This document shows, one piece after another, positions 5,932 to 26,604 of a stretch of DNA of 32,000 nt; within the stretch, counting starts at the first letter, position 1; the number at the start of each line of letters is the position of its first letter. The position numbers were made by a program, and so were the translations under genes. The notes below the pieces were generated by a model, which was not told the DNA's origin, did not search any database, and saw only the letters and a program-made list of their open reading frames with translations. The DNA comes from an uncultured Methanosarcinales archaeon (lineage in GTDB: Archaea > Nanobdellota > Nanobdellia > Woesearchaeales > JAHJBD01), in NCBI GenBank assembly GCA_964534665.1, contig CAZHRT010000010.1, positions 1 to 32,000 of the forward strand. The letters are read 5' to 3'.

Positions 5932-5932
5932 A

Positions 5933-6680: not shown

Positions 6681-6744
6681 GATTTATGTAAACACACACT
6701 TGTTTTTAAAGTTTTTGAAAAAAGATATAAATGAGTAGATATTA

Positions 6745-9812: not shown

Positions 9813-10313
9813 ATGAAAACAATAGACGAACTTAAGAATGAAAAAGGAGAATTAGATATGAATGCGATTAAGCAGATTATTCCATATGAACATCCATTTT
9901 TAATGATTGATAAAGTAATTAGTGTTGATAAAAATAAGATAGTGGCAATAAAGAATGTTTCAGCTTCTGATGAATTCTTAAAAGGTCATTTTGCTGGATT
10001 TCCCATTATGCCGGGTGCATTAATGGTAGAAGGTATGGGGCAAGCAGCTACTTTGCTTATTAGATATAATCTTGAAGAACATTTCAAGAAAGATGTTCTA
10101 GCATTTAAAATAAAAGATGCTAAATTCACTGCACCAGCTTTTGCAGGTGATCAACTAGAGTATGAAGTTGTATTAATGGGCCAAGACGAAAGAGGTGCTT
10201 TAGTACAAGCTAAAGCTAAGAAAGAAGGAAATGTAATAGCTGAAGCTGGAATGATGCTTGCTGTTGTTGACAAAAAAGAATTTAGATCTCAACATAGTCC
10301 TGTTTATAAGTGA
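9813..10313 (+). CDS. fabZ: FabZ-like (R)-3-hydroxyacyl-thioester dehydratase (hotdog fold)
   Basis: 166 aa. IPYEHPFLMIDKV...KNVSASDEFLKGHFAGFPIMPGALMVEGMGQAA matches the FabZ catalytic His/Glu block (lPHRyPFLlvDrv...GHFP..PimPGvl.iEa.aQ). Confidence 0.85.
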   Translation: MKTIDELKNEKGELDMNAIKQIIPYEHPFLMIDKVISVDKNKIVAIKNVSASDEFLKGHFAGFPIMPGALMVEGMGQAATLLIRYNLEEHFKKDVLAFKIKDAKFTAPAFAGDQLEYEVVLMGQDERGALVQAKAKKEGNVIAEAGMMLAVVDKKEFRSQHSPVYK

Positions 10314-10318
10314 TTTAA

Positions 10319-11443
10319 ATGTATATAAAAGGGGTTGGAATGACCCAATTTAGTCTAGAAGATAGAAGCACTCATGCCATGGCTTTTGAAGCTGTGACAG
10401 GTGCATTGAAAGATGCAGACATGTCTATAAATGATGTTGAAGCTTGTGTTGTATCAACAGTTGATACTAATGCAAATGATGAAAAACAAAGGCATTATCC
10501 TTCTGTTGTTAGTTCTTTATTTAAGAAAAGAATCCCTATAATTAGGGTGCCTGCTGTTTGTGGTGGTGGTGGTGCAGCTTTATGGACAGCAAATAGATTA
10601 GGATATGATAATGTACTTGTTTTAGGAACAGATAAGATTGCTTGTAATAAAACAGGAGTAGTAACAAAAGAAATTTTAGGTGCTGCTGAAAGAGTTTATA
10701 GTCAAGAAGAAGGATTGGTTTTTCCTGCTGAGAATGCAATTCTTGCACAACAACATATGTTAAAATTTGGAACGACAACTGATGATTTAGCAGAAGTTGC
10801 TTTTAAGAATCATGAAAATGCATTTATTAATCCAAAAGCTAATTTTTATGGGAAAAAAGTAAGTCTTGAACAAATTAAGAATTCTCCTGTTGTTTCCTCA
10901 CCGTTTAGATTATTTGATTGTAGTATTAGTGTAAATGGAGCAGCAGCTGTTGTTTTATCCAAAGACAAAACAGATGTTAATATTGCAGGATCTGGATTTG
11001 CAACTGATTACTTGATGACTTTTGAAAGAGAAAGTATGGTTGAATTAAAAGCTACTAGATTAGCAGCTGAACAAGCTTATTCACAAGCAGGGATTAATGC
11101 TTCAGAGGTTAATGTTGCTGAGGTTCATGATGCTTTTACTATCTTAGAAATAATGGCATATGAAGATTTGGGTTTTTGTAAGAAAGGTGAAGGTGCTAAT
11201 TTAATAAGAAAAGGAATTGTTAAATTAGATGGTAAGATTCCTGTTAATACTAGTGGTGGGCTTAAAGCCAGAGGACATCCAATAAGTCCAACTGGATTAG
11301 CTCAGATTTATGAAATAGTTAAACAATTAAGAGGGGACTGTGGAGATAGACAGATTAGTTCACCAAAATATGGCCTTACTGAAAATAAAGGTGGTGTTGG
11401 TGCTTCAATCAGTGTTCACGTCCTTAAGAAGGTAGGTGGTTAG
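10319..11443 (+). CDS. Thiolase-fold acyl-CoA C-acyltransferase (archaeal/SCP-x-like type), paralogue 1
   Basis: 374 aa. The candidate nucleophile Cys is in IIRVPAVCGGGGAALW. AEVHDAFT and SGGLKARGHPISPTG are also present. Confidence 0.85.
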   Translation: MYIKGVGMTQFSLEDRSTHAMAFEAVTGALKDADMSINDVEACVVSTVDTNANDEKQRHYPSVVSSLFKKRIPIIRVPAVCGGGGAALWTANRLGYDNVLVLGTDKIACNKTGVVTKEILGAAERVYSQEEGLVFPAENAILAQQHMLKFGTTTDDLAEVAFKNHENAFINPKANFYGKKVSLEQIKNSPVVSSPFRLFDCSISVNGAAAVVLSKDKTDVNIAGSGFATDYLMTFERESMVELKATRLAAEQAYSQAGINASEVNVAEVHDAFTILEIMAYEDLGFCKKGEGANLIRKGIVKLDGKIPVNTSGGLKARGHPISPTGLAQIYEIVKQLRGDCGDRQISSPKYGLTENKGGVGASISVHVLKKVGG

Positions 11444-12566
11444 AGTGATTCAAAGATGGGTATGTAAAGCGTGTAATAAAAAATGGATTTATCCAGTTGA
11501 AAAATGTATTTATTGTGATGGACAAATAAGTAAAGAAGTTGGAACAAAGTTAAAAGTAATTGGAACTACAAAAGTTGCAATATCTTCTCCAGAACATCCA
11601 ATTATTCCTTATTTTACCATGATATTAGAAGACGAAAATGGTAATAGGATGCCTAAAAAAACAATGAGAGAATATCAAATTGGTGATGAGTTTAAATGGG
11701 AGAAAAGTGATGATGAAAGTGCTGTATCAATAATCAAGATAAAATATGATTATGATTTTGCTGTTAAGCAAGCTTTAGAATTGATAAATGATATTGAAGT
11801 TGGTAGTGAATCAAAAGTTTTAATCAAACCAAACATTATGTCGGCAGCTTATGCATATTTAGCAATTACCACAAATCCAAAAGTTGTAAGAGGTGTTGTA
11901 AATTACCTTGTTGGAAAAGGTGTTAAAAAAGAAAATATTACAATTGCTGAACAAGCACAGTTTTCTGAATTTGACAAAGCAATAACAAGATCAGGATTTA
12001 AGAAATTAGCTAAAGAATTAGGTGTTAAGTTAGTAGACCTAGCTACAACTGAATTTGTCGAAAAGGAAAGTGAAGGATTTAAGTTTAAAATTTCTAACTT
12101 GATGTATGAGAACAATGTGATAATTAATGTTCCTGTTATGAAAACACATTTATTGTTAGGAGTTTCTGGAGCATTAGAAAATATGACAAGGGTTGTTTCA
12201 TCTGACAATTATAAAGAAATCGCTAAAGATCCTGTAAAGGCTTTAGAAGCAATAGGCCATCTTCACAAGGTTTTGCCAAAGTATGTAACTGTTGGTGATG
12301 CAAGTATTGGTATGCAAGGTAATGGACCATTAAATTATGGTAATCCTGCTTTTCTTGATATGATACTTGCTAGTAAAGACCCTGTTGCACTAGATAAGAT
12401 ATTCCAAGAGATTGGTATGTTACGAAAAGTGCCACTTATTGAAACAGCTGAAAAGTTAGGAATTGGTTCTGCTGATTTAAGAGAGATTCCTGTTGTTGGT
12501 GATGAGCTTGATGCTTGCCGTAGGGAATTAATGCCAGCTATTGGTTCAAAATTAATTAAGATGTAA
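11436..12566 (+). CDS. Fusion protein: DUF35-like Zn-ribbon + OB fold (thiolase partner) joined to a DUF362-like domain
   Basis: 376 aa. The N-terminus has CKACNKKWIYPVEKCIYC (C-x2-C-x11-C-x2-C) and an OB-like segment LKVIGTTKVAISSPEHPIIPYFTMILEDENGNR...IGDEF. The C-terminal ~270 aa has VLIKPNIM, PVMKTHLLLGVSGALENM and DASIGMQGNGP, resembling DUF362 as I remember it. The start is GTG at 11436 or 11445, overlapping the thiolase stop. Confidence 0.6.
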   Translation: MVRVIQRWVCKACNKKWIYPVEKCIYCDGQISKEVGTKLKVIGTTKVAISSPEHPIIPYFTMILEDENGNRMPKKTMREYQIGDEFKWEKSDDESAVSIIKIKYDYDFAVKQALELINDIEVGSESKVLIKPNIMSAAYAYLAITTNPKVVRGVVNYLVGKGVKKENITIAEQAQFSEFDKAITRSGFKKLAKELGVKLVDLATTEFVEKESEGFKFKISNLMYENNVIINVPVMKTHLLLGVSGALENMTRVVSSDNYKEIAKDPVKALEAIGHLHKVLPKYVTVGDASIGMQGNGPLNYGNPAFLDMILASKDPVALDKIFQEIGMLRKVPLIETAEKLGIGSADLREIPVVGDELDACRRELMPAIGSKLIKM

Positions 12567-12569
12567 AAT

Positions 12570-13622
12570 ATGGTTGAAAAACAATTAATGAAAGGAAACG
12601 AAGCACTAGTTCATGCAGCTATAAAAGCTGGATGTACGTTTTATGCAGGTTATCCTATAACACCACAAAATGAGATTCCTGAAACAATGTCAAAATTAAT
12701 GCCTAAAGTTGATGGGGGAGTTTTTGTACAAGCTGAAGCTGAACTTTCTGCAATTAATATGATCTTTGGTGCTAGTGCTGCAGGGGTAAGGTGTATGACC
12801 TCATCTAGCAGTCCAGGAATTGCTTTAAAGCAAGAAGGCATATCTTATATTGCTGCTGCCGAATTACCTTGTGTGATAGTTAATATGGTTCGTGGTGGGC
12901 CTGGATTAGGGAATATTAATGCTTCACAAGCAGATTATTTTCAAGCTGTTAAAGGTGGTGGACATGGAGATTACAGATTGATTGTAATAGCACCTCATAC
13001 ATTACAAGAATTATATGACCTTACAATGAATTGTTTTGATTATGCTGATTATTATAGAAATCCTGTTTTAATATTGGGGGATGGTATTCTTGCACAGATG
13101 GTTGAACCAGTTGAATTGAAAGAATATGAAAAGATTTTGGATTTACCATCTAAAGATAATTGGACCTTGACTGGTTGTAAAGGAAGGAACCCCCATGTTG
13201 TTAAGACTTTATTGTTAGAACCTAGTGATTCATTGGCTAAGCATAATGTGCATCTTAAAGAGAAATATCAAAAGATAAGTAATGAGCTTTGTTTATGTGA
13301 AGAGTATAAAACAGAAGATGCTGACATATTGATTGTTGCTTATGGTATAACTGCAAGAGTTTGCAAAGAAGCTATTGATATTGCTCGTGATAGCGGTAAA
13401 AAAGTTGGGTTGATAAGGCCAATAACTTTGTGGCCATTTCCTAAAAAAATTCTATCTAAATATAAAGGAAAAGATTTCTTAGTTGTAGAGATGAGTAATG
13501 GACAGATGATTGAAGATGTTAAATTAAATTTAGAATGTCAAGGAAGATTTGAGTTTTTAGGTTGTGGTGGTGGATGGTATCCTGATACAAAACAGATATT
13601 GGAGAAATTAAATGGAATGTAA
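12570..13622 (+). CDS. 2-oxoacid:ferredoxin oxidoreductase, alpha subunit
   Basis: 350 aa. GNEALVHAAIKAGCTFYAGYPITPQNEI and the later PGIALKQEG...VRGGPGLG are typical of Por/Kor/Vor alpha subunits. Confidence 0.85.
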   Translation: MVEKQLMKGNEALVHAAIKAGCTFYAGYPITPQNEIPETMSKLMPKVDGGVFVQAEAELSAINMIFGASAAGVRCMTSSSSPGIALKQEGISYIAAAELPCVIVNMVRGGPGLGNINASQADYFQAVKGGGHGDYRLIVIAPHTLQELYDLTMNCFDYADYYRNPVLILGDGILAQMVEPVELKEYEKILDLPSKDNWTLTGCKGRNPHVVKTLLLEPSDSLAKHNVHLKEKYQKISNELCLCEEYKTEDADILIVAYGITARVCKEAIDIARDSGKKVGLIRPITLWPFPKKILSKYKGKDFLVVEMSNGQMIEDVKLNLECQGRFEFLGCGGGWYPDTKQILEKLNGM

Positions 13623-13642
13623 CGATTATAATACATTAAAAG
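13610..13642 (+). repeat. Left copy of the duplicated korA/korB junction (relic korB start)
   Basis: AAATGGAATGTAA (13610-13622) matches AAATGAAGTGTAA (15751-15763) at 11 of 13 positions. ACATTAAAAG (13633-13642) is identical to 15765-15774. Read from the ATG at 13612, it encodes MECNDYNTLK, compared with the real KorB N-terminus MKCKTLK. Confidence 0.55.
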
Positions 13643-13649
13643 TATATAG

Positions 13650-14606
13650 GTGTATACTGTGGTAATAGCACTAGTAACTGGTGGGGCAGGATTTATTGGG
13701 AGCCATTTAGTAGAAGATTTAGTTGAGAAAGGATATCAAGTAAAAGTTATTGATAGTTTAATTAAAGGTAAAAGTGCAACAATTCAAAAGTTAATTGATC
13801 AAGGTAAAGTTGAATTTTTTGAAGGAGATATAAAAAATAGGGATAGTGTTGATAAAGCTATGAAGAATGTAGATTATGTTTTTCATACTGCAGGTACACA
13901 TATAATTAATTGTGGTAAAAGTCCGGAAGATGCAATTGAGTGTAATGTTCATGGAAGTTACAATGTGTTCAAATCTGCATTAGATAATAATGTTAAAAGG
14001 GTAATTTTTAGTTCAAGTTCAAGCATATATGGGGAACCAAAAAGTTTACCTATGTCTGAAGATAGTGAACTGAATATTGTAGAACCCTATGCTGCAAGCA
14101 AACAAATGGCTGAACATCTATTGAAATTTTTGGGAACTAAAGGATTGAAATATAATATATTAAGATATTTTAATGTTTATGGCTCAAGACAAGCTGTGCA
14201 TGCTTACTATACAACTGTCGTGATAGATTTTATTAATAAATTGATGAATGATGAATCACCAATTATTAACGGAAAAGGTGATCAAAGTCTAGACTTTACA
14301 CATGTAAGTGATGTTGTAAAAGGAAATATAGCTGCAGCTGAATCTACGGTTGAGAATGAAATATTTAATATTGGAACTGGACAAAGTACATCTATTGCTG
14401 ATCTTGCAAAAATGATTATCAAAACTTTAGGTAAAGATATTGAACCCAGATTTAGGGATAGAAAAGTTTTGGTAACAAGAAAAAAAGCTGACACAATTAA
14501 AGCTGAAAAAATACTTGGATTTAAATCTCAAGTTTCTATTGAAGAAGGTATAGCAAAAATTACTAAAGAAATTGCTGAGAATCCTGAATTATATAAAGGT
14601 AGATAA
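13650..14606 (+). CDS. NAD-dependent nucleotide-sugar epimerase/dehydratase (extended SDR)
   Basis: 318 aa with TGGAGFIGSHL and the YAASK catalytic pair. The start may instead be the GTG at 13659, in which case the GGTG spanning 13649-13652 would serve as its RBS. Confidence 0.85.
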   Translation: MYTVVIALVTGGAGFIGSHLVEDLVEKGYQVKVIDSLIKGKSATIQKLIDQGKVEFFEGDIKNRDSVDKAMKNVDYVFHTAGTHIINCGKSPEDAIECNVHGSYNVFKSALDNNVKRVIFSSSSSIYGEPKSLPMSEDSELNIVEPYAASKQMAEHLLKFLGTKGLKYNILRYFNVYGSRQAVHAYYTTVVIDFINKLMNDESPIINGKGDQSLDFTHVSDVVKGNIAAAESTVENEIFNIGTGQSTSIADLAKMIIKTLGKDIEPRFRDRKVLVTRKKADTIKAEKILGFKSQVSIEEGIAKITKEIAENPELYKGR

Positions 14607-14608
14607 GA

Positions 14609-15763
14609 ATGCTAGAAATAAATGATAAGATATGGAAAATTCCTTTATTCCAAACGTATTGGGATGAAAATGATGTTGAAGCTATTAATGAAGTAGTTAG
14701 AAGGGGGAGCTCCTGGGCAACTGGACCTGAGGTTGTCGAGTTTGAAAAAAAAATCGCTGAATTTAATGAAAGAAAATATGCTTTGGCTTTTAATTCTGGA
14801 ACAAGTGCTTTGCATGCAATGTTGCTTGCATATGATGTTAAAGGTAAAGAAGTAATTGTACCCTCATTTACTTTTATTGCTACGGCAAATGCAGTTGTAT
14901 TAGCTGGTGGAAAGCCAATTTTTGCTGAATCTGAAGATGAAACATTTGGATTAGATGCAGAAGATGTTTTATCTAGAATAAATAAAAATACTGCTGCAAT
15001 CTTAACTTTAAACTATGGTGGAGGAGTTTCAAAAGATATTGAAAAATTAAAGCAGATTGCTGATGAGAAAAACATATTATTACTAGAAGACAATGCACAT
15101 TCTTTTGGTGTAAAGAAAAATGGTAAAATGTGTGGAACATTTGGGCAAGCAGCTGCATTAAGCTTTTGTCAGAATAAACTAATAACTACTGGTGAAGGTG
15201 GTGCTGTGGTTACAGATGATGAAAAAATATTTGAAAAAATTAAGTTGATTAAAAGCCATGGAAGAATTAAAAATTCTAAAGAAGATTTTTCATCAATTAA
15301 AAATTATGGGTATGTGGAAGTGGGTTATAATTATAAGATACCTACAATGGGGGCGGCTTTAGGACTCTCACAACTTAATAAATTTGAAAAAATAATGAAT
15401 TTAAGAATTGAAGCTGGAACAAGATTAAATGATGGGATAAAAGAATTTGTTAAAGTATCTGAACCTTATGAAAATTCTGACCACTTTTTTCAAAAATATA
15501 CTATTATGCTTAATAATAATGAAACCAGAGATAAACTACAATTATTTTTAAGAGATAAAGGCATAATGAGTAAAGTTTACTATGAACCTATCCATCTAGA
15601 AAATATTTATAGAGATAATTATGGTTATAAAGAAGGGGATTTGCCTAAAACAGAAGCAATGTCTAAGAAAATCCTTACCTTGCCTATGTGGCCAGGTATT
15701 TCAAATAATGATATAGATTATATAATTAATTCAATCAAGGAGTTTTTTAAAAATGAAGTGTAA
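14609..15763 (+). CDS. DegT/DnrJ/EryC1-family PLP-dependent sugar aminotransferase
   Basis: 384 aa with NSGTSALHAMLLA, DNAHSFG and SFCQNKLITTGEGG (PLP lysine context). Its last 11 nt overlap the korB start. Confidence 0.85.
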   Translation: MLEINDKIWKIPLFQTYWDENDVEAINEVVRRGSSWATGPEVVEFEKKIAEFNERKYALAFNSGTSALHAMLLAYDVKGKEVIVPSFTFIATANAVVLAGGKPIFAESEDETFGLDAEDVLSRINKNTAAILTLNYGGGVSKDIEKLKQIADEKNILLLEDNAHSFGVKKNGKMCGTFGQAAALSFCQNKLITTGEGGAVVTDDEKIFEKIKLIKSHGRIKNSKEDFSSIKNYGYVEVGYNYKIPTMGAALGLSQLNKFEKIMNLRIEAGTRLNDGIKEFVKVSEPYENSDHFFQKYTIMLNNNETRDKLQLFLRDKGIMSKVYYEPIHLENIYRDNYGYKEGDLPKTEAMSKKILTLPMWPGISNNDIDYIINSIKEFFKNEV

Positions 15764-15774
15764 GACATTAAAAG
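15751..15774 (+). repeat. Right copy of the duplicated korA/korB junction (functional korB start)
   Basis: See the left copy at 13610-13642. The DegT C-terminus (KNEV-stop) mirrors the KorA C-terminus (LNGM-stop) at the nucleotide level. Confidence 0.55.
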
Positions 15775-16481
15775 ATGATGGGATGCATTATTGTCCTGGT
15801 TGTGGGCATACTCAAGTGCATAGAATGATTGCTGATCTAATTGATGAATTAGGTATCCGAGAAAAAACTATTGCTTCTGCACCAGTTGGTTGTGCAGTAT
15901 TATTTTATAATTATTTTAATGTTGATGTTATTGAATGTGCACATGGTCGTGTTCCTGCTGTCATGGGCGCTATAAAAAAAGTTAATCCTGATAAGTTTGT
16001 TTTATGTTACCAAGGGGATGGTGATTTAGCGGCAATTGGTACAACTGAAACAATACATACTGCTAACCGTGGAGAAAACTTAACTGTTATTTTTATCAAT
16101 AATGCAATTTATGGTATGACTGGTGGTCAAATGGCACCTACAACTTTACCAGGACAAATTACAACTACAACACCAAAAGGAAGAGGGAATAATAATGAAG
16201 GATTACCTCTTAAGGTTTGTGAATTATTAAGCGTACTTGGAGGTCCAACATACATTGAAAGATGTGCAGTAAATAGTGCTGAGAATATGAAGAAAACTAA
16301 AGAAGCCATCAAAAAAGCAATTCAATGCCAATTAGAAGGTAAAGGTTATAGTTTTATAGAGATATTGTCTGGCTGTCCAACCAACTGGAAAGTTAGTGTA
16401 AAAGATTCTATTGGCTTTATTGATAAGATGATTGAATATTTCCCATTAGGTGTTTTCAAGGATGTAAGAAATGAGAGATGA
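15753..16481 (+). CDS. 2-oxoacid:ferredoxin oxidoreductase, beta (TPP-binding) subunit
   Basis: 242 aa with YCPGCGH and YQGDGDLAAIGTTETIHTANRGENLTVIFINNAIYGMTGGQ (TPP/Mg site). Confidence 0.9.
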   Translation: MKCKTLKDDGMHYCPGCGHTQVHRMIADLIDELGIREKTIASAPVGCAVLFYNYFNVDVIECAHGRVPAVMGAIKKVNPDKFVLCYQGDGDLAAIGTTETIHTANRGENLTVIFINNAIYGMTGGQMAPTTLPGQITTTTPKGRGNNNEGLPLKVCELLSVLGGPTYIERCAVNSAENMKKTKEAIKKAIQCQLEGKGYSFIEILSGCPTNWKVSVKDSIGFIDKMIEYFPLGVFKDVRNER

Positions 16482-17001
16482 AATTAAGATAGCAGGTTAT
16501 GGTGGACAAGGGGTTGTCTTAGCTGGAAGTTTGATAGCTAACACTGCAATGCGTCAAGGATTGTATACTTGCGGCATGGTATCTTATGGTGCTGAAATGA
16601 GGGGAGGAACAGCAAACTCAACTGTAATAGTAAGTGATAAACCAATAAGTAGCCCAATTGTTATAATGCCAAATGTTGTATTAATATTAAATGAACCTTC
16701 TCTTAAGAAATTTGAAGAGAGTGTAGAAAAAGGTGGTGTTATAATTATTAATACATCAGAATGTAAGAAAAAAGTTTCTAGACAAGATATTGAAATTGTT
16801 GAGGTTGCTGCAACAGATGCTGCAGTAGAACTGGGAAATAAGAAAGTTACAAATATGGTCATGGTTGGAGCATATATTAAGAAAAAAGGTTCAATAAGAT
16901 TAGAAGAAGCCATAAAGAATCTAGATGTTGTAATCAAGAGAAAAGAATTGATTGATATTAATAAAAAAGCTTTGGAAAAAGGTGGGGAATTATGTATGTA
17001 A
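16471..17001 (+). CDS. 2-oxoacid:ferredoxin oxidoreductase, gamma subunit
   Basis: 176 aa. IKIAGYGGQGVVLAGSLIA is typical of the gamma subunit/domain. It overlaps korB by 11 nt and the next thiolase by 10 nt. No delta (2x[4Fe-4S]) subunit gene is present in the window. Confidence 0.85.
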   Translation: MRDEIKIAGYGGQGVVLAGSLIANTAMRQGLYTCGMVSYGAEMRGGTANSTVIVSDKPISSPIVIMPNVVLILNEPSLKKFEESVEKGGVIIINTSECKKKVSRQDIEIVEVAATDAAVELGNKKVTNMVMVGAYIKKKGSIRLEEAIKNLDVVIKRKELIDINKKALEKGGELCM

Positions 17002-18128
17002 AAGGTGTTGGTTGTACACCATATAGGATTCATGAGAAAAAATCACATATGTTAGCTTATGATGCGATTAGTCAAGCCTTAAAAGATGCTGATACGTCTT
17101 TAGATAAGATTGATGGTATTGTTTGTAGTACGTTAGAATGGTTTTTTACTGAGGAAAATCAAAGACATTTTGCTGCAATGCTTTCTGGTTTGTTAAAAAC
17201 TAATAAACCAATAATAAGGGTGCCTGCTGCTTGTGCTGGAGGGGGAACAGCCTTATGGACAGCTAATAAAATGGGATTTGATAATGTATTGGTTGTTGGT
17301 GTTGAAAAACTACATGGACATACAAGAAATACTGATATGATTACAAAAGAATTTGGTATGGCTGCTGAATCTAAATGGGAGCAAACTGAAGGTGTTAATT
17401 TTCCTGGAGAAAATGCTTTAGTTGCACAAGCATACCTTAACAAATTTCCCGAAACAACTATGAATGATCTTGCTTTGATATCGTTAAAGAATCATGAAAA
17501 TGCTTTTTTAAATCCTAATGCTTATTTTTATGGGAAAAAAGTTAACTTGGATCAAATTAAGAATTCACCAATAATAACTTCGCCATTAAGATTATTTGAT
17601 TGTAGTGTAAGTGTTGATGGGGCTGCAGCTGTTGTTTTATCTAAAGATAAAACAGATGTTAAAATTGCAGGGTCATCATTATGTTCTGATTACCTTCCGC
17701 CTTTTGAAAGGGATGATATGACAACATGGGAAGGAACATTAAGAACTGGCAATGAAGTTTTTGAGCAAACAGGTTTAGAAAGAAGTGAGATTGATTTTGC
17801 TGAATTACATGATGCTTTTACAATAGTTGAACTATTAACATACGAAGATCTTGGTTTTTGTAAGAAAGGGGAAGCGTATAAAATGATTAGGGATGGTAGA
17901 TTTAAGATTGATGGAAAGATGCCTGTAAATGTTTCTGGTGGATTAAAAGCTAAAGGGCATCCTGTTTCTGCAACTGGTCTTGGAATGATATATGAGATTG
18001 TTAAACAAATACGTGGTGAATCTGGTGATAGACAAATTAGTAAAACTAGAAATGCGCTTGCCCATAATATTGGTGGAGCAGGTGGTACAACCGCCGTACA
18101 CATACTAAAGAAAATTGGAGGGGTTTAA
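16992..18128 (+). CDS. Thiolase-fold acyl-CoA C-acyltransferase, paralogue 2
   Basis: 378 aa, roughly 55-60% identical by eye to the protein at 10319-11443. Shared blocks include IIRVPAACAGGGTALWTAN, NHENAF, YGKKV, LRLFDCSVSVDGAAAVVLSKDKTDVKIAGS, YEDLGFCKKGE and SGGLKAKGHP. No DUF35 partner is adjacent. Confidence 0.85.
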   Translation: MYVKGVGCTPYRIHEKKSHMLAYDAISQALKDADTSLDKIDGIVCSTLEWFFTEENQRHFAAMLSGLLKTNKPIIRVPAACAGGGTALWTANKMGFDNVLVVGVEKLHGHTRNTDMITKEFGMAAESKWEQTEGVNFPGENALVAQAYLNKFPETTMNDLALISLKNHENAFLNPNAYFYGKKVNLDQIKNSPIITSPLRLFDCSVSVDGAAAVVLSKDKTDVKIAGSSLCSDYLPPFERDDMTTWEGTLRTGNEVFEQTGLERSEIDFAELHDAFTIVELLTYEDLGFCKKGEAYKMIRDGRFKIDGKMPVNVSGGLKAKGHPVSATGLGMIYEIVKQIRGESGDRQISKTRNALAHNIGGAGGTTAVHILKKIGGV

Positions 18129-18875
18129 ATGGAAGACTTAAAAGGTAAAACTGCATTAATAACTGGTGGTTCTCAAGGTATAGGTAAAGCTATTGCTATA
18201 GCAATGGCAAAAGAGGGTGCTAATATTATTATCAATGATATTGAACCTGCAAAAGAAGGGGCTGAAGCAACAGTTGCTGAATTAAAAGAATTTGGTGTTG
18301 ATGCTATGGCAGCTTATGCAGATGTTTCAGATTTTGAACAAGTTAAATCTATGGTTGAACAAATTAAAGAAAAATTCCCAGTAATTAATGTATTGGTAAA
18401 TAATGCAGGAATAACTAAAGATAGAACATTAAAAAAGATGACTCCTGAAGAATGGAATGCTGTAATAAATGTTAATCTTAATTCAATCTATAATGTAACG
18501 CATAATGTTTTGGGGCTTATACCTGAAGGTGGTTCGATTATATCTTTATCTTCTATTGCTGGAGTTGGAGGAAATTTTGGACAGTGCAATTATGCATCAA
18601 CTAAAGCCGGGATTATTGGATTTACAAAGTCTCTTGCAAAAGAGTTAGGAAAAATGAAGATTACTGTTAATGCGATTGCCCCAGGATTTATCAAAAGTAA
18701 GATGACTGATAAAATCCCTGTAATGATGCTTGATCAAATATTGGACTTAATACCTTCAAAAGAGATGGGACAGCCTGAAGATGTTGCTAATTTAGCAGTG
18801 TTTTTGGCATCTAATAAGGGTAAATATGTAAATTCTCAAGTAATCAGAGTAGATGGCGGCATGATGTTTGGTTGA
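18129..18875 (+). CDS. fabG: 3-oxoacyl-thioester reductase, classical SDR (FabG / PhaB acetoacetyl-CoA reductase type)
   Basis: 248 aa with TGGSQGIGKAIA, NNAGIT and S...YASTKAG. The segment KKMTPEEWNAVINVNLNSIYNVTHNV resembles CoA-dependent PhaB at least as much as ACP-dependent FabG. Confidence 0.9.
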   Translation: MEDLKGKTALITGGSQGIGKAIAIAMAKEGANIIINDIEPAKEGAEATVAELKEFGVDAMAAYADVSDFEQVKSMVEQIKEKFPVINVLVNNAGITKDRTLKKMTPEEWNAVINVNLNSIYNVTHNVLGLIPEGGSIISLSSIAGVGGNFGQCNYASTKAGIIGFTKSLAKELGKMKITVNAIAPGFIKSKMTDKIPVMMLDQILDLIPSKEMGQPEDVANLAVFLASNKGKYVNSQVIRVDGGMMFG

Positions 18876-18927
18876 GTACAATAAACTTTAAATAGGGTTT
18901 TTATTTACCTTCTTTAGGGGATATAAC

Positions 18928-20082
18928 TTGGATTTTAATTATACTAAAAAACAATTAATGCTTTACCACACTATTAGGAATTTTGTAGAGAAAGAAATTA
19001 TTCCTTATGCTCAAGATATTGATCATGAAGAAATATTTCCAATCGAACAAATTAAGAAATTAGCTAAGATGGGCGTTATGGGGATGTCTATACCTAAAAA
19101 GTATGGTGGGGCTGAACTTGATAATGTTTCTCAAACTATAATTATGGAAGAAGTTAGTCGTGCTTGTGCTTCAACTTCTGTTACAATGGGGGCACATACT
19201 TCTTTATGTTGTTATCCAATTGTAAATCATGGTACTAATGCTCAAAAAGAAAGGTGGTTACCTAAACTTGCTTCAGGCGAGTGGTTAGGTGCTTTTGCGC
19301 TTACAGAACCAAATGCTGGTTCTGATGCTGTTAATGTACAAACAACTGCTGTTAGAGATGGAGACGATTACATAATTAATGGTAACAAAGTTTTTATTAC
19401 AAATGGTGGAAAATGTGATTTTGTTCCAATTGTTTGTACAACTGATCCTTCTGCTAAACATAAGGGATTAGCTATTTTTGGGATTGAAACAAAAAATACT
19501 CCAGGATTTAAAGTTGGGAAGAAAGAGGATAAGCTGGGTTTAAGAGGTTCAAATACTTGTGAACTTGTGTTTGAAGATATGCGTGTTCCAAAAGAAAATT
19601 TAGTTAGTGGTAAAGAAGGCGAAGGCTTTAAGATTTCTATGGGTGTATTTAATTCTGGAAGGATTGGAATTGGAGTACAGGGTGTTGGAATTGCACAAGC
19701 AGCATTTGATGAATGTATGAAATATGTTAGTGAAAGAGAACAGTTTGGAAGGCCTTTAAAGAAATTTCAAGCTATACAGTTTCAGATGGCTGAAATGGCA
19801 ACTAAAATTGAAGCTGCTCGTTTATTATGTTTGAAAGCTGCACATGTAAAAGATCAAGGTAAAAATTATATCAAACATGCTGCAATGGCTAAATATTATG
19901 GAAGCGATGTTTCAATGGAAGTTACAAGACAAGCTATACAAATACATGGTGGTTATGGTTATATGAAAGATTATCCATTAGAAAGATTTTACAGAGATGC
20001 AAAGATTACTGAGATTTATGAAGGTACAACAGAAATCCAAAAATTAGTTATTGGAAATGAATTGTTTGGGAGAGGTTTTTAA
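18928..20082 (+). CDS. Acyl-CoA dehydrogenase (short-chain/butyryl-CoA dehydrogenase-like)
   Basis: 384 aa with GAFALTEPNAGSDA, ITNG and IYEGTTEIQ. It uses a TTG start with GGGGA 7 nt upstream. Confidence 0.9.
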   Translation: MDFNYTKKQLMLYHTIRNFVEKEIIPYAQDIDHEEIFPIEQIKKLAKMGVMGMSIPKKYGGAELDNVSQTIIMEEVSRACASTSVTMGAHTSLCCYPIVNHGTNAQKERWLPKLASGEWLGAFALTEPNAGSDAVNVQTTAVRDGDDYIINGNKVFITNGGKCDFVPIVCTTDPSAKHKGLAIFGIETKNTPGFKVGKKEDKLGLRGSNTCELVFEDMRVPKENLVSGKEGEGFKISMGVFNSGRIGIGVQGVGIAQAAFDECMKYVSEREQFGRPLKKFQAIQFQMAEMATKIEAARLLCLKAAHVKDQGKNYIKHAAMAKYYGSDVSMEVTRQAIQIHGGYGYMKDYPLERFYRDAKITEIYEGTTEIQKLVIGNELFGRGF

Positions 20083-20085
20083 TGA

Positions 20086-20131: not shown

Positions 20132-20134
20132 TCA

Positions 20135-20917
20135 ATGAACATCATTGTTTGTGTAAAACAAGTACCTGATACAAATGATATTAAGATTGATCCTGTTAAA
20201 GGGACTTTAATTAGAGAGGGAGTTCCATCAATTATCAATCCAGAAGATAATAATGCTATTGAGGCGGCTTTGCAAATAAAAGGTGAAGGTAAAGTTACTG
20301 TTCTTTCAATGGGGCCACCACAAGCTGAAGAAGCTTTAAGGGAAGCTATTGCAATGGGTGTTGATGAAGCTATTCTTGTCTCAGATTTTAAGTTTGCTGG
20401 TTCTGATACATGGGCAACTGCAAATGTATTGGCAAGTGCTGTTAAGAAATTAGACTATGACCTAATAATTTGTGGAAGGCAAGCAATTGATGGGGATACT
20501 GCACAAGTGGGTCCCCAATTAGCTGAAAATTTGGGTTTACCACAAATCACTTATGTTCAAAAAATTGAAGTTGGAGAGGGTGTATTAAAAGTTCAAAGAG
20601 CTCTTGAAGATGGATATGAAATAATAGAAGGAAAGTTGCCTGTTTTAATAACCGTAGTAAAAGAAATTAACAATCCAAGATATCCAACATTACAAGGAAT
20701 TGATAAAGCTTATGAAACTGATATTATTAAATGGACAGCAGATGATATTGAAGCAGATCCTGCAAAAATTGGACTTAAAGGTTCTCCAACACATGTAAAA
20801 AAGAGTTTTGTTCCTCCTGGAAAAGGCCAAGGAATAAAATTAGATGGACCTACTAAAGATATTGCAAAACAATTAATTGGAATCTTAAAAGAAAAAGAGA
20901 TTATCCAAGAATTTTAA
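20135..20917 (+). CDS. etfB: Electron-transfer flavoprotein, beta/small subunit (bifurcating-type signature)
   Basis: 260 aa with MNIIVCVKQVPD and GRQAIDGDTAQVGPQLAENLGLPQITYV. Confidence 0.9.
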   Translation: MNIIVCVKQVPDTNDIKIDPVKGTLIREGVPSIINPEDNNAIEAALQIKGEGKVTVLSMGPPQAEEALREAIAMGVDEAILVSDFKFAGSDTWATANVLASAVKKLDYDLIICGRQAIDGDTAQVGPQLAENLGLPQITYVQKIEVGEGVLKVQRALEDGYEIIEGKLPVLITVVKEINNPRYPTLQGIDKAYETDIIKWTADDIEADPAKIGLKGSPTHVKKSFVPPGKGQGIKLDGPTKDIAKQLIGILKEKEIIQEF

Positions 20918-20918
20918 A

Positions 20919-22088: not shown

Positions 22089-22113
22089 GTGCTATTAGTT
22101 CTAAATAGATAAT

Positions 22114-22755: not shown

Positions 22756-22756
22756 A

Positions 22757-24958: not shown

Positions 24959-25087
24959 TTTTATATGTCTCCTCTGCTTTTTTTATAACCTCAAGCAGCA
25001 TTGCTTTTTGCACATAGTCGTACATTAGCTTTGGTAATATATATTGGGAGTTATTTTGGGTTTATAAATATATCTGTATAAGGAGTA

Positions 25088-25504: not shown

Positions 25505-25539
25505 AAAAATAAGAAAGTAAAAAAATAATAAAAACTTTT

Positions 25540-26595: not shown

Positions 26596-26604
26596 AAATA
26601 CCAC

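What the first reader, a model, noticed from the sequence alone, without database searches (positions are those of the whole stretch)
9813..18875. R-specific, apparently ACP-independent chain-elongation chemistry (FabZ + FabG/PhaB + thiolases instead of KAS/ACP)
Seen: the dehydratase is a FabZ-type hotdog and the ketoreductase is a FabG/PhaB-type SDR. In known systems both act on (R)-3-hydroxyacyl intermediates. The window contains no crotonase-fold hydratase and no HAD-type (S)-specific dehydrogenase, which are the hallmarks of beta-oxidation. It also contains no ACP, FabD, FabH/F/B, FabI or AcpS.

The condensing role falls to thiolase-fold enzymes with a DUF35 partner. The reductase loop KKMTPEEWNAVINVNLNSIYNVT looks closer to CoA-dependent PhaB than to FabG.

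Inference: biosynthetic stereochemistry operating on CoA thioesters. This would be a hybrid of FAS-II enzymes and reverse beta-oxidation.
Basis: partly seen in the sequence, partly recalled or inferred. Interest (0 to 1): 0.8.

Follow-up and report, generated by a model that had tools for sequence, protein, structure and literature searches.

The report
Carrier-protein-free fatty acid operon in archaeon
A tiny marine archaeon (Woesearchaeota) carries one tightly packed gene cluster that appears to build fatty acids on coenzyme A, without the usual bacterial carrier protein, and attach them to glycerol-3-phosphate; this would give an archaeon bacterial-style membrane lipids.

Summary
Window 9813-18875 encodes a FabZ-type dehydratase, two archaeal-type thiolases, a thiolase partner and a FabG-type reductase. 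No ACP, AcpS, KAS, FabD, FabI, crotonase or HAD is found in about 50 kb or in four related loci.

- The contig is archaeal (RadA, uS2, RPA) and belongs to DPANN Woesearchaeota.
- The "DUF35 partner" is DUF35 only by predicted fold, and it is fused to a LarA-like DUF362 domain.
- The unit is larger (about 4408-24357). It comprises acyl-CoA carboxylase, BirA and an acyl-CoA thioesterase, then FabZ, thiolase, DUF35-DUF362, (OFOR), thiolase, FabG, a Bcd-like ACAD, bifurcating-type EtfBA, two PlsC paralogs and GpsA.

The gene order is conserved in relatives whose orthologues are only 48-78% identical.

Best reading: CoA-based, (R)-specific fatty-acid synthesis feeding G3P ester lipids. The idea is not new. 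It was proposed by Lombard in 2012 and demonstrated in Sulfolobus by Schmerling in 2024, and fatty-acid and G3PDH genes have been noted in Woesearchaeota. The enzyme set and the operon link to PlsC/GpsA form a new variant.

ACP-independence across the whole genome, product chain length and direction of flux remain untested.

The parts
4408..5931 (+). Acyl-CoA carboxylase carboxyltransferase subunit (PccB/MmdA-type)
   Evidence: Pfam Carboxyl_trans 616 bits. NCBIfam mmdA subfamily 749 bits, below its cut-off. Conserved at the same position in the P0106 locus and in L020.
5933..6313 (+). Biotin carboxyl carrier protein
   Evidence: Pfam Biotin_lipoyl. Contains the AMKM biotinylation motif.
6745..7137 (+). 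Hotdog acyl-CoA thioesterase (YbgC/FadM family)
   Evidence: TIGR00051 scores 113.7 bits, above its 68.7 cut-off. Pfam 4HBT_2. Conserved in the P0106 locus and L019.
7127..7792 (-). Biotin-protein ligase (BirA-like)
   Evidence: Pfam BPL_LplA_LipB and BPL_C. Present in all five related loci.
7779..9668 (-). Biotin carboxylase with a 130-aa basic N-terminal extension, divergent from the FabZ operon
   Evidence: Pfam Biotin_carb_N, CPSase_L_D2 and Biotin_carb_C. N-terminal sequence. Orthologues are 54-61% identical in L006, L019 and L020.
9813..10313 (+). FabZ-type (3R)-hydroxyacyl thioester dehydratase
   Evidence: His59 and Glu73 are present. 460 homologs at E<=1e-10; the top 120 are 166-196 aa (nearly all 166) and 67-98% identical, and every one that carries an organism label is Woesearchaeota or Nanoarchaeota. 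The E. coli basic residues R121, R122 and R126 are replaced by D, E and L.
10319..11443 (+). Thiolase 1 (archaeal DUF35-associated class)
   Evidence: PDB 7yvy 215 bits and 6esq 185 bits. The Cys81 nucleophile, HDAF motif and GHP motif are present.
11436..12566 (+). Fusion of a Zn-ribbon/OB (DUF35-fold) N-domain (aa 1 to ~105) with DUF362 (LarA-like fold, aa ~125-376)
   Evidence: Pfam DUF362. No DUF35 hit by sequence. AF2 model pLDDT 91.8. Foldseek matches DUF35 proteins and LarA racemases. The four Zn-ribbon Cys residues (10, 13, 24, 27) are conserved in at least 90% of 48 homologs. A distant member, P0262, again lies directly after a thiolase.
12570..13622 (+). 2-oxoacid:ferredoxin oxidoreductase alpha subunit (accessory; found only in this subclade)
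   Evidence: Pfam POR_N and PFOR_II. Present in L006 and absent from the P0106 locus, L019 and L020.
13650..15763 (+). NAD-dependent sugar epimerase/dehydratase plus DegT-type aminotransferase; an insertion that is probably not part of the pathway
   Evidence: Pfam. Both genes are absent from L006, where the OFOR alpha, beta and gamma genes are contiguous.
15753..17001 (+). OFOR beta (TPP-binding) and gamma subunits
   Evidence: Pfam TPP_enzyme_C and POR. There is no delta (ferredoxin) subunit, and no CxxCxxCxxxCP motif anywhere in the window.
16992..18128 (+). Thiolase 2, a conserved paralog of thiolase 1
   Evidence: 55% identical to thiolase 1. Orthologues are 56-78% identical in L006, L019 and L020; in L006 and L019 each paralog finds a clearly best partner. 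Cys81, HDAF and GHP are present.
18129..18875 (+). FabG-type SDR, predicted (3R)-3-hydroxyacyl-CoA-forming ketoreductase
   Evidence: The E. coli R129 region is deleted, and R172 is replaced by Met. An Asp at the end of strand beta-2 (IIINDI) suggests NADH use in this subclade.
18928..20082 (+). Bcd-like acyl-CoA dehydrogenase, proposed here to act as the enoyl-CoA reductase
   Evidence: Best PDB hit is the C. difficile Bcd of the Bcd/EtfAB complex (5ol2_C, 439 bits). Best NCBIfam hit is acryloyl-CoA reductase AcrC at 512 bits, below its 640 cut-off.
20135..22088 (+). EtfB and EtfA of the electron-bifurcating type
   Evidence: EtfB scores 205-292 bits against the bifurcating proteins CarD, 5ol2_B, 7koe, 4kpu and LctB, and 54-98 bits against non-bifurcating Etfs. 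It carries the DGDTAQVGP motif. EtfA scores 246-375 bits against bifurcating Etfs and 179 or less against the others.
22114..23389 (+). Two PlsC-family (HX4D) acyltransferase paralogs
   Evidence: Pfam Acyltransferase. NHSSFLD/FPEGGRS and NHGSYLD/YPEGT motifs. PlsC2 matches T. maritima PlsC 5kym. Each paralog has its own orthologue in L006 and L019.
23386..24357 (+). Bacterial-type NAD(P)H glycerol-3-phosphate dehydrogenase GpsA
   Evidence: Pfam NAD_Gly3P_dh_N, NAD_Gly3P_dh_C and GPD_NAD_C_bact. Its start overlaps PlsC2 by 4 bp.
24359..26604 (-). Archaeal markers flanking the operon (uS2, YjbQ, RadA); they establish the host
   Evidence: Pfam Ribosomal_S2, and Rad51 with HHH_5. The same flanking genes occur in L006, the P0106 locus and L019.

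Best explanation
The window comes from a marine DPANN archaeon (Woesearchaeota; GTDB Nanoarchaeota). I propose that window 4408-24357 is one functional unit for de novo, carrier-protein-independent synthesis of fatty acyl-CoA and its esterification to sn-glycerol-3-phosphate.

Proposed steps:
1. Two paralogous archaeal-type thiolases, held in a complex by the DUF35-fold domain of the DUF35-DUF362 fusion, condense acyl-CoA with acetyl-CoA. Malonyl-CoA from the adjacent biotin-dependent acyl-CoA carboxylase is a possible alternative extender.
2. The FabG-like SDR reduces the 3-ketoacyl-CoA to (3R)-hydroxyacyl-CoA.
3. The FabZ-type hotdog dehydrates this to the trans-2-enoyl-CoA.
4. A Bcd-like acyl-CoA dehydrogenase with a bifurcating-type EtfAB reduces the enoyl-CoA with NADH while reducing ferredoxin. 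This makes the cycle irreversible and pulls the unfavourable thiolase step.
5. The cycle repeats. A YbgC/FadM-type thioesterase can release or edit acyl-CoA.
6. GpsA supplies G3P, and the two conserved PlsC paralogs perform the sn-1 and sn-2 acylations to give phosphatidic acid.

In this subclade an embedded OFOR could supply acyl-CoA starter units and reduced ferredoxin.

Shown by computation: the identity and class of each enzyme, the local absence of ACP, KAS and FabD, the DUF35 fold, the bifurcating-type Etf, the single tight co-directional gene array, conserved synteny, and the archaeal host.

Inferred only: CoA as the sole carrier, the stereochemistry, the direction of flux, the chain length, complex formation, the role of malonyl-CoA, the role of DUF362, and the fate of the product as membrane lipid.
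For: Host:
- RadA, archaeal uS2 and RPA lie on the same contig.
- The contig was recovered in at least 24 independent assemblies.
- Homologs that carry an organism label are Woesearchaeota or Nanoarchaeota.

Enzymes:
- FabZ.
- Thiolases closest to archaeal DUF35-dependent thiolases.
- DUF35 fold in the fusion. The thiolase-fusion adjacency is also seen in a relative only 39% identical.
- FabG-like SDR.
- The ACAD is closest to the C. difficile Bcd and to the AcrC reductase.
- EtfAB scores two- to three-fold higher against bifurcating Etfs than against non-bifurcating ones.
- Acyl-CoA thioesterase.
- Carboxyltransferase, BCCP, biotin carboxylase and BirA.
- Two PlsC paralogs with HX4D motifs, and GpsA.

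Organisation:
- Sixteen co-directional genes with gaps of -11 to +52 bp.
- The core order ACC/BirA | FabZ-Thl-fusion-Thl-FabG ... PlsC-PlsC-GpsA | uS2 is kept in L006, the P0106 locus and L019. L020, whose contig ends before that point, keeps it as far as the FabZ-Thl-fusion-FabG-Thl block. Orthologues are 43-78% identical.

Local absence of FAS-II parts:
- No ACP, AcpS, KAS, FabD or FabI in the window, its 10-kb extensions or four relatives.

ACP docking:
- E. coli FabZ R121, R122 and R126 are Asp, Glu/Asp and Leu/Met in 121 homologs.
- The E. coli FabG R129 segment is deleted in all four orthologues.

Precedent:
- A KT/DUF35 + SDR + (R)-dehydratase + enoyl-CoA reductase pathway without ACP makes fatty acids in S. 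acidocaldarius (10.1101/2024.07.05.601840).
Against: - No whole genome was available, so ACP, AcpS and KAS encoded elsewhere cannot be excluded.
- The identification of FabZ R121, R122 and R126 as ACP-docking residues rests on my recollection of Dodge et al. 2019, which is not held in the library.
- The FabG R172 position is Arg in L019 and L020, so the loss of docking residues is not uniform.
- The ACAD's nearest characterised relatives are short-chain enzymes (Bcd, SCAD), which would fit a C4-C6 product.
- ACAD/Etf is missing from the L019 locus and was not seen in L020, whose contig ends shortly after the fatty-acid genes. The enoyl-reduction step is therefore not part of the conserved core.
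- No enzyme in the locus is known to use malonyl-CoA. The lack of the HDCF cysteine is shared with the mevalonate-type thiolase of a relative (HDSF) and therefore says nothing about decarboxylative chemistry.
- There is no PlsB or PlsX/PlsY, and no CdsA, in the window.
- The published view is that archaeal PlsC homologs are unlikely to work in membrane synthesis (PMC6431249).
- ODZ Woesearchaeota have genomes of about 1 Mb and are thought to scavenge lipids (PMC10936187).
Confidence: 0.55

Rival explanations
1. Short-chain fermentative pathway. OFOR makes acetyl-CoA and reduced ferredoxin. Thiolase, an (R)-specific reductase, a dehydratase and Bcd/EtfAB then make butyryl- or hexanoyl-CoA as an electron sink, and the thioesterase releases the acid. 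This would be energy metabolism, not lipid synthesis.
For: - The ACAD is closest to butyryl-CoA dehydrogenases and SCAD.
- The Etf is of the bifurcating type typical of butyrate fermenters.
- An OFOR is embedded in the operon in this subclade.
- An acyl-CoA thioesterase lies nearby.
- ODZ Woesearchaeota are predicted fermenters (PMC10936187).
- The Asp at the end of FabG strand beta-2 suggests NADH use.
Against: - Two PlsC paralogs and GpsA lie in the same tight array and are conserved with it.
- ACC, BirA and in one relative BioY are conserved next to the operon.
- OFOR, and in L019 also ACAD/Etf, are dispensable, while FabZ, the thiolases, the fusion and FabG are always present.
- Known butyrate pathways use (S)-specific Hbd and Crt, which are absent.
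Confidence: 0.15
2. Ordinary ACP-dependent bacterial FAS-II acquired by horizontal transfer, with ACP, AcpS, FabD and KAS encoded elsewhere. The thiolases and ACAD/Etf in the cluster would then serve another purpose.
For: - The FabZ passes one NCBIfam FabZ equivalog cut-off, and the FabG passes a FabG subfamily cut-off.
- Databases and a published survey annotate these proteins as ACP enzymes, and that survey reports FabI in some DPANN MAGs (PMC10936187).
- The whole genome was not searched.
Against: - No ACP, AcpS, KAS or FabD lies within +/-10 kb in five loci spanning deep divergence, whereas the thiolases and the DUF35-fold partner are always interleaved with FabZ and FabG.
- The FabZ basic patch and the FabG R129 segment are not conserved.
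- The FabZ and FabG fall below the stricter TIGRFAM equivalog cut-offs.
- The thioesterase and ACAD are CoA-type enzymes.
Confidence: 0.12
3. Degradation or remodelling of scavenged host lipids. This would be an (R)-specific beta-oxidation resembling peroxisomal MFE-2, with ACAD/Etf oxidising acyl-CoA, FabZ hydrating, the SDR oxidising and the thiolases cleaving. The PlsC proteins would re-acylate scavenged lysolipids.
For: - The highest-scoring PDB entry for the SDR, with its two domains summed, is the (3R)-hydroxyacyl-CoA dehydrogenase of C. tropicalis MFE-2, so R-specific degradation has precedent.
- DPANN archaea are thought to scavenge lipids (PMC10936187; PMC7242380).
- All the steps are chemically reversible.
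Against: - The Etf and ACAD belong to the bifurcating Bcd/EtfAB reductase class.
- No acyl-CoA synthetase is present.
- An ATP-dependent carboxylase with BirA, conserved next to the operon, has no role in beta-oxidation.
- GpsA makes new G3P.
- In Sulfolobus, KT/DUF35 complexes favour condensation.
Confidence: 0.1

Closest known systems
Archaeal ACP-independent fatty acid synthase of Sulfolobus acidocaldarius (KT Saci_1121/DUF35 Saci_1120 + FabG-like ACR Saci_1104 + MaoC dehydratase Saci_1085 + MDR enoyl-CoA reductase Saci_1115; Schmerling et al. 2024, bioRxiv 10.1101/2024.07.05.601840; proposed by Lombard et al. 2012)
   Same: The host is an archaeon, and the intermediates are CoA thioesters. 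A thiolase paired with a DUF35-fold protein is the condensing unit. A FabG-like SDR and a hotdog-fold dehydratase give (R)-stereochemistry. No ACP or KAS is present locally.
   Different: - The dehydratase is a true FabZ, which that paper states is absent from archaeal genomes, not MaoC.
- The enoyl reductase is Bcd-like ACAD + bifurcating EtfAB, not an NADPH-dependent MDR enzyme.
- The DUF35 domain is unrecognisable by sequence and is fused to DUF362.
- There are two thiolase paralogs.
- ACC, BirA and a thioesterase lie adjacent.
- PlsC x2 and GpsA are in the same operon, whereas in Sulfolobus the fate of the fatty acids is unknown.
Clostridial reverse beta-oxidation / butyrate pathway (Thl-Hbd-Crt-Bcd/EtfAB; C. 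difficile 5OL2, A. fermentans 4KPU)
   Same: A CoA-based thiolase condensation, with Bcd-type ACAD and a bifurcating EtfAB as the irreversible enoyl-CoA reductase. An OFOR supplies acyl-CoA and reduced ferredoxin.
   Different: The middle steps are (R)-specific FabG and FabZ types instead of (S)-specific Hbd and crotonase. The thiolase is the archaeal DUF35 class. The array is linked to phospholipid acyltransferases rather than to CoA-transferase or Ptb-Buk.
Bacterial type II fatty acid synthase (FabD/H/F/G/Z/I + AcpP/AcpS)
   Same: FabZ and FabG homologs are present (34% and 40% identical to the E. coli enzymes), together with a biotin-dependent carboxylase and PlsC and GpsA downstream.
   Different: No ACP, AcpS, FabD, KAS or FabI is present locally. 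The condensing enzymes are thiolases. ACP-docking residues are not conserved.
Archaeal thiolase/HMG-CoA synthase/DUF35 complex of the mevalonate pathway (M. thermolithotrophicus 6ESQ/6ET9)
   Same: The thiolase class is the same (185 bits), as is the Zn-ribbon/OB partner fold. A canonical copy of that operon lies next to the fatty-acid genes in relative L020.
   Different: No HMG-CoA synthase is present in the window. The fatty-acid thiolases are distinct paralogs, 39% identical to the mevalonate-type thiolase. The partner domain is fused to DUF362.
Bacterial-type lipid genes reported in uncultured archaea (PlsC/PlsY/GpsA in MGII/III, DPANN and Asgard: Villanueva 2017, Coleman 2019 PMC6431249; FA genes and G3PDH in Woesearchaeota: Castelle 2021 PMC8204110; FabG/FabI/FabZ in ODZ DPANN: Zhang 2024 PMC10936187)
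   Same: The same lineage and the same gene families. The presence of these genes has already been published.
   Different: Those surveys list individual genes from MAG bins, and one concludes they probably do not act in membrane synthesis. Here the genes form one conserved operon physically linked to archaeal core genes, with thiolase/DUF35 and ACAD/Etf filling the steps for which FAS-II parts are missing. The papers I searched do not describe that reading.
Peroxisomal multifunctional enzyme type 2 (MFE-2) beta-oxidation
   Same: (3R)-hydroxyacyl-CoA intermediates are handled by an SDR dehydrogenase and a hotdog hydratase. The SDR shares the VNDx and KKMT motifs with the window protein.
   Different: MFE-2 is degradative and fused, and uses a MaoC-type hydratase 2 and an acyl-CoA oxidase. 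It has no link to ACC, PlsC or GpsA.

Membership tests
Archaeal ACP-independent FAS (KT/DUF35 type) | Thiolase encoded next to, and partnered with, a DUF35 (Zn-ribbon + OB) protein | tested here: met
   The gene lies between the two thiolases. The AF2 model matches DUF35 chains (6ok1_D, 7pyt_A, 5m3k_E, 3irb_B, 6esq_E-G; E 2e-4 to 1.6e-2, TMt 0.41-0.49), and the four Zn-ribbon Cys residues are conserved. The feature is not met at sequence level: there is no Pfam hit at E<=10, and BLASTP against a canonical Woesearchaeal DUF35 gives E=0.27.
Archaeal ACP-independent FAS (KT/DUF35 type) | FabG-like SDR acting as an (R)-specific ketoacyl-CoA reductase | tested here: inconclusive
   Homology to FabG, PhaB and MFE-2 (3R)-dehydrogenases is clear. 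Substrate carrier, stereochemistry and cofactor were not measurable.
Archaeal ACP-independent FAS (KT/DUF35 type) | [quoted passage not shown] | tested here: not met
   There is no MaoC domain. The dehydratase is FabA/FabZ family (PF07977).
Archaeal ACP-independent FAS (KT/DUF35 type) | NADPH-dependent MDR enoyl-CoA reductase | tested here: not met
   No MDR/ADH_zinc protein is present in the window. A Bcd-like ACAD with EtfAB occupies the position instead.
Archaeal ACP-independent FAS (KT/DUF35 type) | Genome lacks ACP and ACP synthase | not testable with these tools
   Only about 50 kb around the locus and four related loci could be read, and all lack them. The single scan of genome collections was already used.
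Bacterial FAS-II | Acyl carrier protein and holo-ACP synthase | tested here: not met
   No PP-binding or ACPS Pfam hit. phmmer with EcACP, BsACP and EcAcpS gave a best E of 3.7. The test covers the local region only.
Bacterial FAS-II | Ketoacyl-ACP synthases (FabH/FabB/FabF) and FabD | tested here: not met
   No ketoacyl-synt or Acyl_transf_1 family was found. There are only weak partial FabH-like hits inside the thiolases (24-34 bits).
Bacterial FAS-II | FabZ dehydratase with the catalytic His/Glu pair | tested here: met
   PRK00006 scores 119.6 against a cut-off of 113, although TIGR01750 scores 114, below 155. His and Glu are invariant.
Bacterial FAS-II | Basic ACP-docking surface on FabZ and FabG | tested here: not met
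   FabZ positions equivalent to E. coli R121, R122 and R126 are D, E/D and L/M in 121 sequences. The FabG R129 segment is deleted in four orthologues, and the R172 position is variable. The assignment of these residues to ACP docking is from memory, not from a paper I could read.
Clostridial Bcd/EtfAB reverse beta-oxidation | Bcd-type ACAD with bifurcating-type EtfAB | tested here: met
   5ol2_C 439 bits. EtfB scores 292 and 281 bits against CarD and 5ol2_B, and at most 98 against non-bifurcating Etfs. The DGDTAQVGP motif is present. Bifurcating activity itself was not tested.
Clostridial Bcd/EtfAB reverse beta-oxidation | (S)-specific Hbd (3HCDH) and crotonase | tested here: not met
   No PF02737, PF00725 or PF00378 hits in the window.
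Bacterial G3P-ester phospholipid pathway | GpsA and HX4D lysophosphatidate/glycerol-phosphate acyltransferases | tested here: met
   GpsA matches three Pfam domains. The two PlsC paralogs carry NHxSxxD and (F/Y)PEG motifs, and one matches 5kym.
Bacterial G3P-ester phospholipid pathway | A dedicated sn-1 acyltransferase (PlsB or PlsX/PlsY) and CdsA | tested here: not met
   None is present in the window or its extensions. The second PlsC paralog is proposed to fill the sn-1 role; this is an inference.

The most novel reading that the evidence does not exclude
A clade of DPANN archaea (Woesearchaeota) makes its own bacterial-type diacyl-G3P phospholipids with a self-contained, ACP-free machine. 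Two thiolase paralogs would be organised by a cryptic DUF35 domain, and the LarA-like DUF362 domain fused to it would be a new catalytic or cofactor-binding component. DUF362 might be the missing enoyl-reducing or epimerising activity in relatives that lack ACAD/Etf. The conserved adjacent carboxylase might supply malonyl-CoA to a thiolase-fold enzyme for decarboxylative condensation. That would be a third, independent solution to fatty-acid synthesis, and a natural archaeon on the bacterial side of the lipid divide.
Probability: 0.25. Interest if true: 0.85.

Novelty: new variant of a known kind. Interest (0 to 1): 0.62.

Why it matters
The 'lipid divide' separates archaeal isoprenoid-ether-G1P membranes from bacterial and eukaryotic acyl-ester-G3P membranes. 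How eukaryotes, as descendants of archaea, came to have the bacterial kind is an open question.

Earlier reports of PlsC, GpsA and Fab genes in uncultured archaea rested on scattered genes in metagenome bins and were discounted (PMC6431249). Here the whole route from carboxylase to G3P acylation lies in one conserved operon. It is physically joined to archaeal core genes (RadA, uS2) in many independent assemblies, which rules out a binning artefact.

The operon also explains how the pathway could run without ACP, KAS and FabD: thiolase/DUF35 and Bcd/EtfAB occupy those steps. This yields a defined set of about ten small proteins that can be expressed and reconstituted.

It also matters for DPANN biology. 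These organisms have genomes of about 1 Mb and are usually assumed to steal their lipids, yet this clade devotes about 2% of such a genome to this cluster. Finally, it assigns a first functional context to a subfamily of the uncharacterised DUF362 family.

Tried and rejected
- **Pfam, NCBIfam and PDB sequence searches for DUF35 in 11436-12566.** All were negative. Only the predicted structure showed the fold.
- **The missing second catalytic cysteine as a sign of malonyl-CoA use.** Both thiolases have HDAF instead of HDCF. I rejected the idea because 7yvy (annotated acetyl-CoA acetyltransferase) also has HDAF, and the mevalonate-type thiolase in L020 has HDSF.
- **NADH preference of FabG as a clade-wide property.** The Asp at the end of strand beta-2 occurs only in the window and L006, not in L019 or L020.
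- **OFOR, the epimerase and the aminotransferase as pathway members.** Synteny shows that OFOR is subclade-specific and that the two sugar genes are an insertion.
- **PHB synthesis.** No PhaC or PhaE is present.
- **The organism label of the nearest GTDB representative.** I did not rely on 'uncultured Methanosarcinales', because the labelled protein homologs say Woesearchaeota or Nanoarchaeota.
- **Other negative results.** No tRNA genes were found. A ferredoxin-motif scan was negative. One look-up of a distant fusion homolog returned a 1.2-kb contig with no context.

Full report
**What is in the sequence.**

The window has low G+C (about 31%). From 9813 to 24357 it carries sixteen co-directional ORFs separated by -11 to +52 bp. 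Pfam, NCBIfam and PDB sequence searches identify them in this order:

1. a FabA/FabZ hotdog dehydratase
2. a thiolase
3. a 376-aa protein with a DUF362 domain
4. the alpha subunit of a 2-oxoacid:ferredoxin oxidoreductase (OFOR)
5. an NAD-dependent epimerase
6. a DegT aminotransferase
7. the OFOR beta subunit
8. the OFOR gamma subunit
9. a second thiolase
10. a FabG-type SDR
11. an acyl-CoA dehydrogenase (ACAD)
12. EtfB
13. EtfA
14. a first PlsC-family acyltransferase
15. a second PlsC-family acyltransferase
16. a bacterial-type GpsA

Upstream lie a carboxyltransferase, BCCP and a YbgC/FadM acyl-CoA thioesterase. A BirA and a biotin carboxylase are transcribed divergently from FabZ.

No crotonase, 3HCDH, ACP, AcpS, KAS, FabD or FabI family appears among the ORFs scanned. 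A direct phmmer search with two ACPs and AcpS found only noise (best E=3.7). That search covered every six-frame segment of at least 40 aa in the window, its two 10-kb extensions (L013, L015) and a relative (L006).

**Whose genome it is.**

The operon ends against an archaeal uS2 gene and is followed by RadA and an RPA. A RadB-like gene lies upstream. The same contig was assembled independently in at least 24 JGI, ENA and Logan data sets from marine samples, with contigs up to 217 kb. The arrangement is therefore not a binning or assembly chimera.

Among homologs of the DUF362 fusion and of FabZ, those that carry an organism label are 'Candidatus Woesearchaeota archaeon' or 'Nanoarchaeota archaeon'. 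The host is therefore a DPANN archaeon. The closest GTDB representative (L006; thiolase 78% identical) is titled 'uncultured Methanosarcinales', a label I regard as unreliable.

**The thiolase partner.**

It is not detectable as DUF35 by sequence: there is no Pfam hit at E<=10, no PDB hit at E<=1, and BLASTP against a canonical Woesearchaeal DUF35 gives E=0.27.

An AlphaFold2 model built from 48 homologs is confident (pLDDT 91.8, pTM 0.91). Foldseek places its first ~100 residues, a four-Cys zinc ribbon plus a beta-barrel, on the DUF35 subunits of these complexes (E 2e-4 to 1.6e-2, TM 0.41-0.49):
- Ltp2-ChsH2
- benzoylsuccinyl-CoA thiolase
- PhlABC
- MucABC
- 3IRB
- the M. thermolithotrophicus thiolase/HMGCS complex

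The remaining 250 residues resemble LarA-type racemases (E about 1e-7 to 1e-5). This fits DUF362 being the sister family of LarA in Pfam clan CL0471, with no known function (PMC11770544).

An exhaustive HMMER search found 3812 cluster representatives matching the query at E<=0.001. Among the 150 best, about 45 align from the N-terminus and so carry the DUF35-like domain, while most of the rest match only the DUF362 part. One of these, only 39% identical, again lies directly after a thiolase. The 'DUF35 partner' is therefore supported at the level of fold and context, and the fusion is a new architecture.

**The other enzymes.**

*Thiolases.* Both belong to the archaeal DUF35-dependent class. 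Their best PDB matches are 7YVY, 4YZO and 6ESQ, and both have the Cys nucleophile and the GHP histidine. They are 55% identical paralogs, and both copies recur in every relative examined. In L006 and L019 each has a clear one-to-one orthologue.

*FabZ.* It has the catalytic His and Glu and is strongly conserved. There are 460 homologs; the top 120 are nearly all 166 aa and 67-98% identical.

*SDR.* Over its whole length it is nearer to Firmicute FabG (227 bits) than to PhaB (172-186 bits). I confirmed that the PhaB sequence I used is identical to 4N5L/3VZP.

*ACAD and Etf.* The ACAD is closest to the Bcd of the C. difficile Bcd/EtfAB complex (439 bits) and to the acryloyl-CoA reductase AcrC model. 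Both Etf subunits score two- to three-fold higher against electron-bifurcating Etfs (CarDE, 5OL2, 4KPU, 7KOE, LctBC) than against non-bifurcating ones. This is the strongest indication that the cluster runs in the reductive direction.

**Is it CoA rather than ACP?**

The evidence is indirect but consistent:
- The condensing enzymes, the ACAD and the thioesterase belong to CoA-dependent families.
- No carrier-protein gene lies near the operon in five loci spanning 48-78% identity.
- In 121 FabZ homologs, the positions of E. coli R121, R122 and R126 are Asp, Glu/Asp and Leu/Met. I recall these as part of the AcpP-docking patch, but I could not read the paper.
- The E. coli FabG R129 segment is deleted in all four orthologues examined, while the R172 position is Met in two and Arg in two.

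A whole-genome check was not possible with the tools available.

**What is core and what is accessory.**

Comparing the window with L006, the P0106 locus (a 400-kb contig), L019 and L020 separates the parts:
- **Invariant core in all five loci:** biotin carboxylase and BirA (with CT and BCCP wherever the contig extends far enough), then FabZ, thiolase, fusion, thiolase and FabG.
- **PlsC, PlsC, GpsA followed by uS2:** present in all but L020, whose contig ends before that point.
- **ACAD/EtfBA:** present in three of the five loci. L019 has a methyltransferase at that position instead.
- **OFOR:** present only in the window and L006.
- **Epimerase and aminotransferase:** an insertion specific to the window.
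- **L020:** a canonical HMGCS/thiolase/DUF35 mevalonate operon follows directly, and a BioY transporter lies next to the carboxylase.

**Interpretation.**

The most economical reading is a CoA-based, (R)-specific fatty-acid synthesis cycle: thiolase/DUF35-fold complex, FabG-like reductase, FabZ, and Bcd/EtfAB. The acyl-CoA products would be esterified to G3P made by GpsA, through two specialised PlsC paralogs.

The adjacency of an ATP-dependent acyl-CoA carboxylase suggests malonyl-CoA is involved, but no enzyme in the cluster is known to use it. I found no sequence evidence for decarboxylative chemistry, because the missing HDCF cysteine is also missing from the mevalonate-type thiolase.

Stereochemistry alone does not prove synthesis. 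Peroxisomal MFE-2 degrades fatty acids through (3R) intermediates, and it is the highest-scoring PDB entry for the SDR when its two domains are summed. The direction of flux is inferred from the bifurcating-type Etf, the carboxylase and the acyltransferase/GpsA linkage.

The main rivals are:
- a short-chain fermentative electron sink, since the ACAD's nearest characterised relatives are butyryl-CoA enzymes
- a conventional FAS-II with the carrier-protein genes elsewhere in the genome
- remodelling of scavenged lipids

**Relation to what is known.**

ACP-independent fatty-acid synthesis in archaea was proposed in 2012 (Lombard et al., cited in PMC3533463 and PMC7242380). It was demonstrated for S. 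acidocaldarius in 2024: KT/DUF35, a FabG-like (R)-specific NADPH reductase, a MaoC dehydratase and an MDR enoyl-CoA reductase, with the first three forming a complex around DUF35 (10.1101/2024.07.05.601840). That paper states that FabZ-type dehydratases are absent from archaeal genomes.

Three earlier reports bear on this lineage:
- Castelle et al. [quoted passage not shown]
- Zhang et al. 2024 listed FabG, FabI and FabZ in oxygen-deficient-zone DPANN MAGs (PMC10936187).
- Coleman et al. 2019 found PlsC and PlsY in MGII/III, DPANN and Asgard bins but judged a membrane role unlikely (PMC6431249).

None of the papers I could search describes the operon, the thiolase/DUF35-DUF362 unit or the Bcd/EtfAB step in these archaea.

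The finding is therefore a rediscovery of a known concept in a new and more complete form. It has different dehydratase and enoyl-reductase modules and a new scaffold fusion. It is also the first case I am aware of in which the fatty-acid module is co-operonic with G3P synthesis and acylation in an archaeon.

**Verdict.**

I rate it a new variant of a known kind, of moderate to high interest because it makes the 'archaeon with bacterial-type lipids' question directly testable with a small set of genes.

Noticed in passing
window 13650-15763: An NAD-dependent sugar epimerase/dehydratase and a DegT/EryC1 aminotransferase lie between the OFOR alpha and beta genes. In the closest relative (L006) the three OFOR genes are contiguous, so this is a two-gene insertion into an operon that apparently does not disrupt it.
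   Followed up: partly
window 12570-13622 and 15753-17001: A three-subunit OFOR (alpha, beta, gamma) has no delta/ferredoxin subunit, and there is no ferredoxin Cys motif anywhere in the window. It is embedded in the lipid operon only in this subclade. Its substrate and electron acceptor are unknown.
   Followed up: partly
window 11436-12566 (aa ~125-376); P0128 and related proteins of 460-495 aa: The DUF362 domain has a LarA (nickel-pincer racemase)-like fold and is fused to a DUF35-like domain. Some homologs carry a further C-terminal extension of about 110 aa. The function of DUF362 is unknown, and this gives it a thiolase-linked context.
   Followed up: partly
L019 7804-8769 and 9514-10739: In this relative a class I methyltransferase lies between thiolase 2 and FabG, and the locus contains no ACAD/Etf. 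Either another enzyme reduces the enoyl-CoA or the product differs, for example a methyl-branched or unsaturated chain.
   Followed up: no
L020 13334-16818: A canonical mevalonate-type HMGCS-like + thiolase + Pfam-recognisable DUF35 operon, plus a CoA-transferase, directly follows the fatty-acid genes. A BioY biotin transporter lies beside the carboxylase genes (4501-5103).
   Followed up: partly
window 3688-4371, 24359-24958, 25540-26604 and the same genes in L006, L019, L020 and the P0106 locus: The neighbourhood RadB ... carboxylase ... lipid operon ... uS2 ... RadA is kept across relatives whose proteins are only about 45-78% identical. This is unusually stable synteny for DPANN genomes.
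   Followed up: partly
window 7779-9668 (aa 1-130) and 20919-22088 (aa 1-65): The biotin carboxylase has a 130-aa lysine/arginine-rich N-terminal extension. EtfA has a 65-aa acidic, cysteine-free N-terminal extension in the position where CarE carries a ferredoxin domain.
   Followed up: no
window 6310-6680 (- strand): Two small ORFs (48 aa, and 75 aa predicted to be membrane-spanning) between BCCP and the thioesterase recur with similar sizes (47 and 81 aa) at the same place in the distant P0106 locus. They are probably real genes of unknown function.
   Followed up: no
L015 18810-20531: A response-regulator-GGDEF (diguanylate cyclase) protein is encoded on the archaeal contig about 8 kb left of the window. 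This is a bacterial-type signalling protein in an archaeon.
   Followed up: no
window 28669-31730; L013 250-4698: Large ORFs of 801, 221 and 1482 aa have no Pfam family at all, which is typical DPANN 'dark matter'.
   Followed up: no
L006 (CAZMIO010000014.1): The GTDB representative that carries the same operon is titled 'uncultured Methanosarcinales archaeon', whereas labelled homologs of its proteins say Woesearchaeota or Nanoarchaeota. This is probably a taxonomy-mapping error in the record.
   Followed up: no
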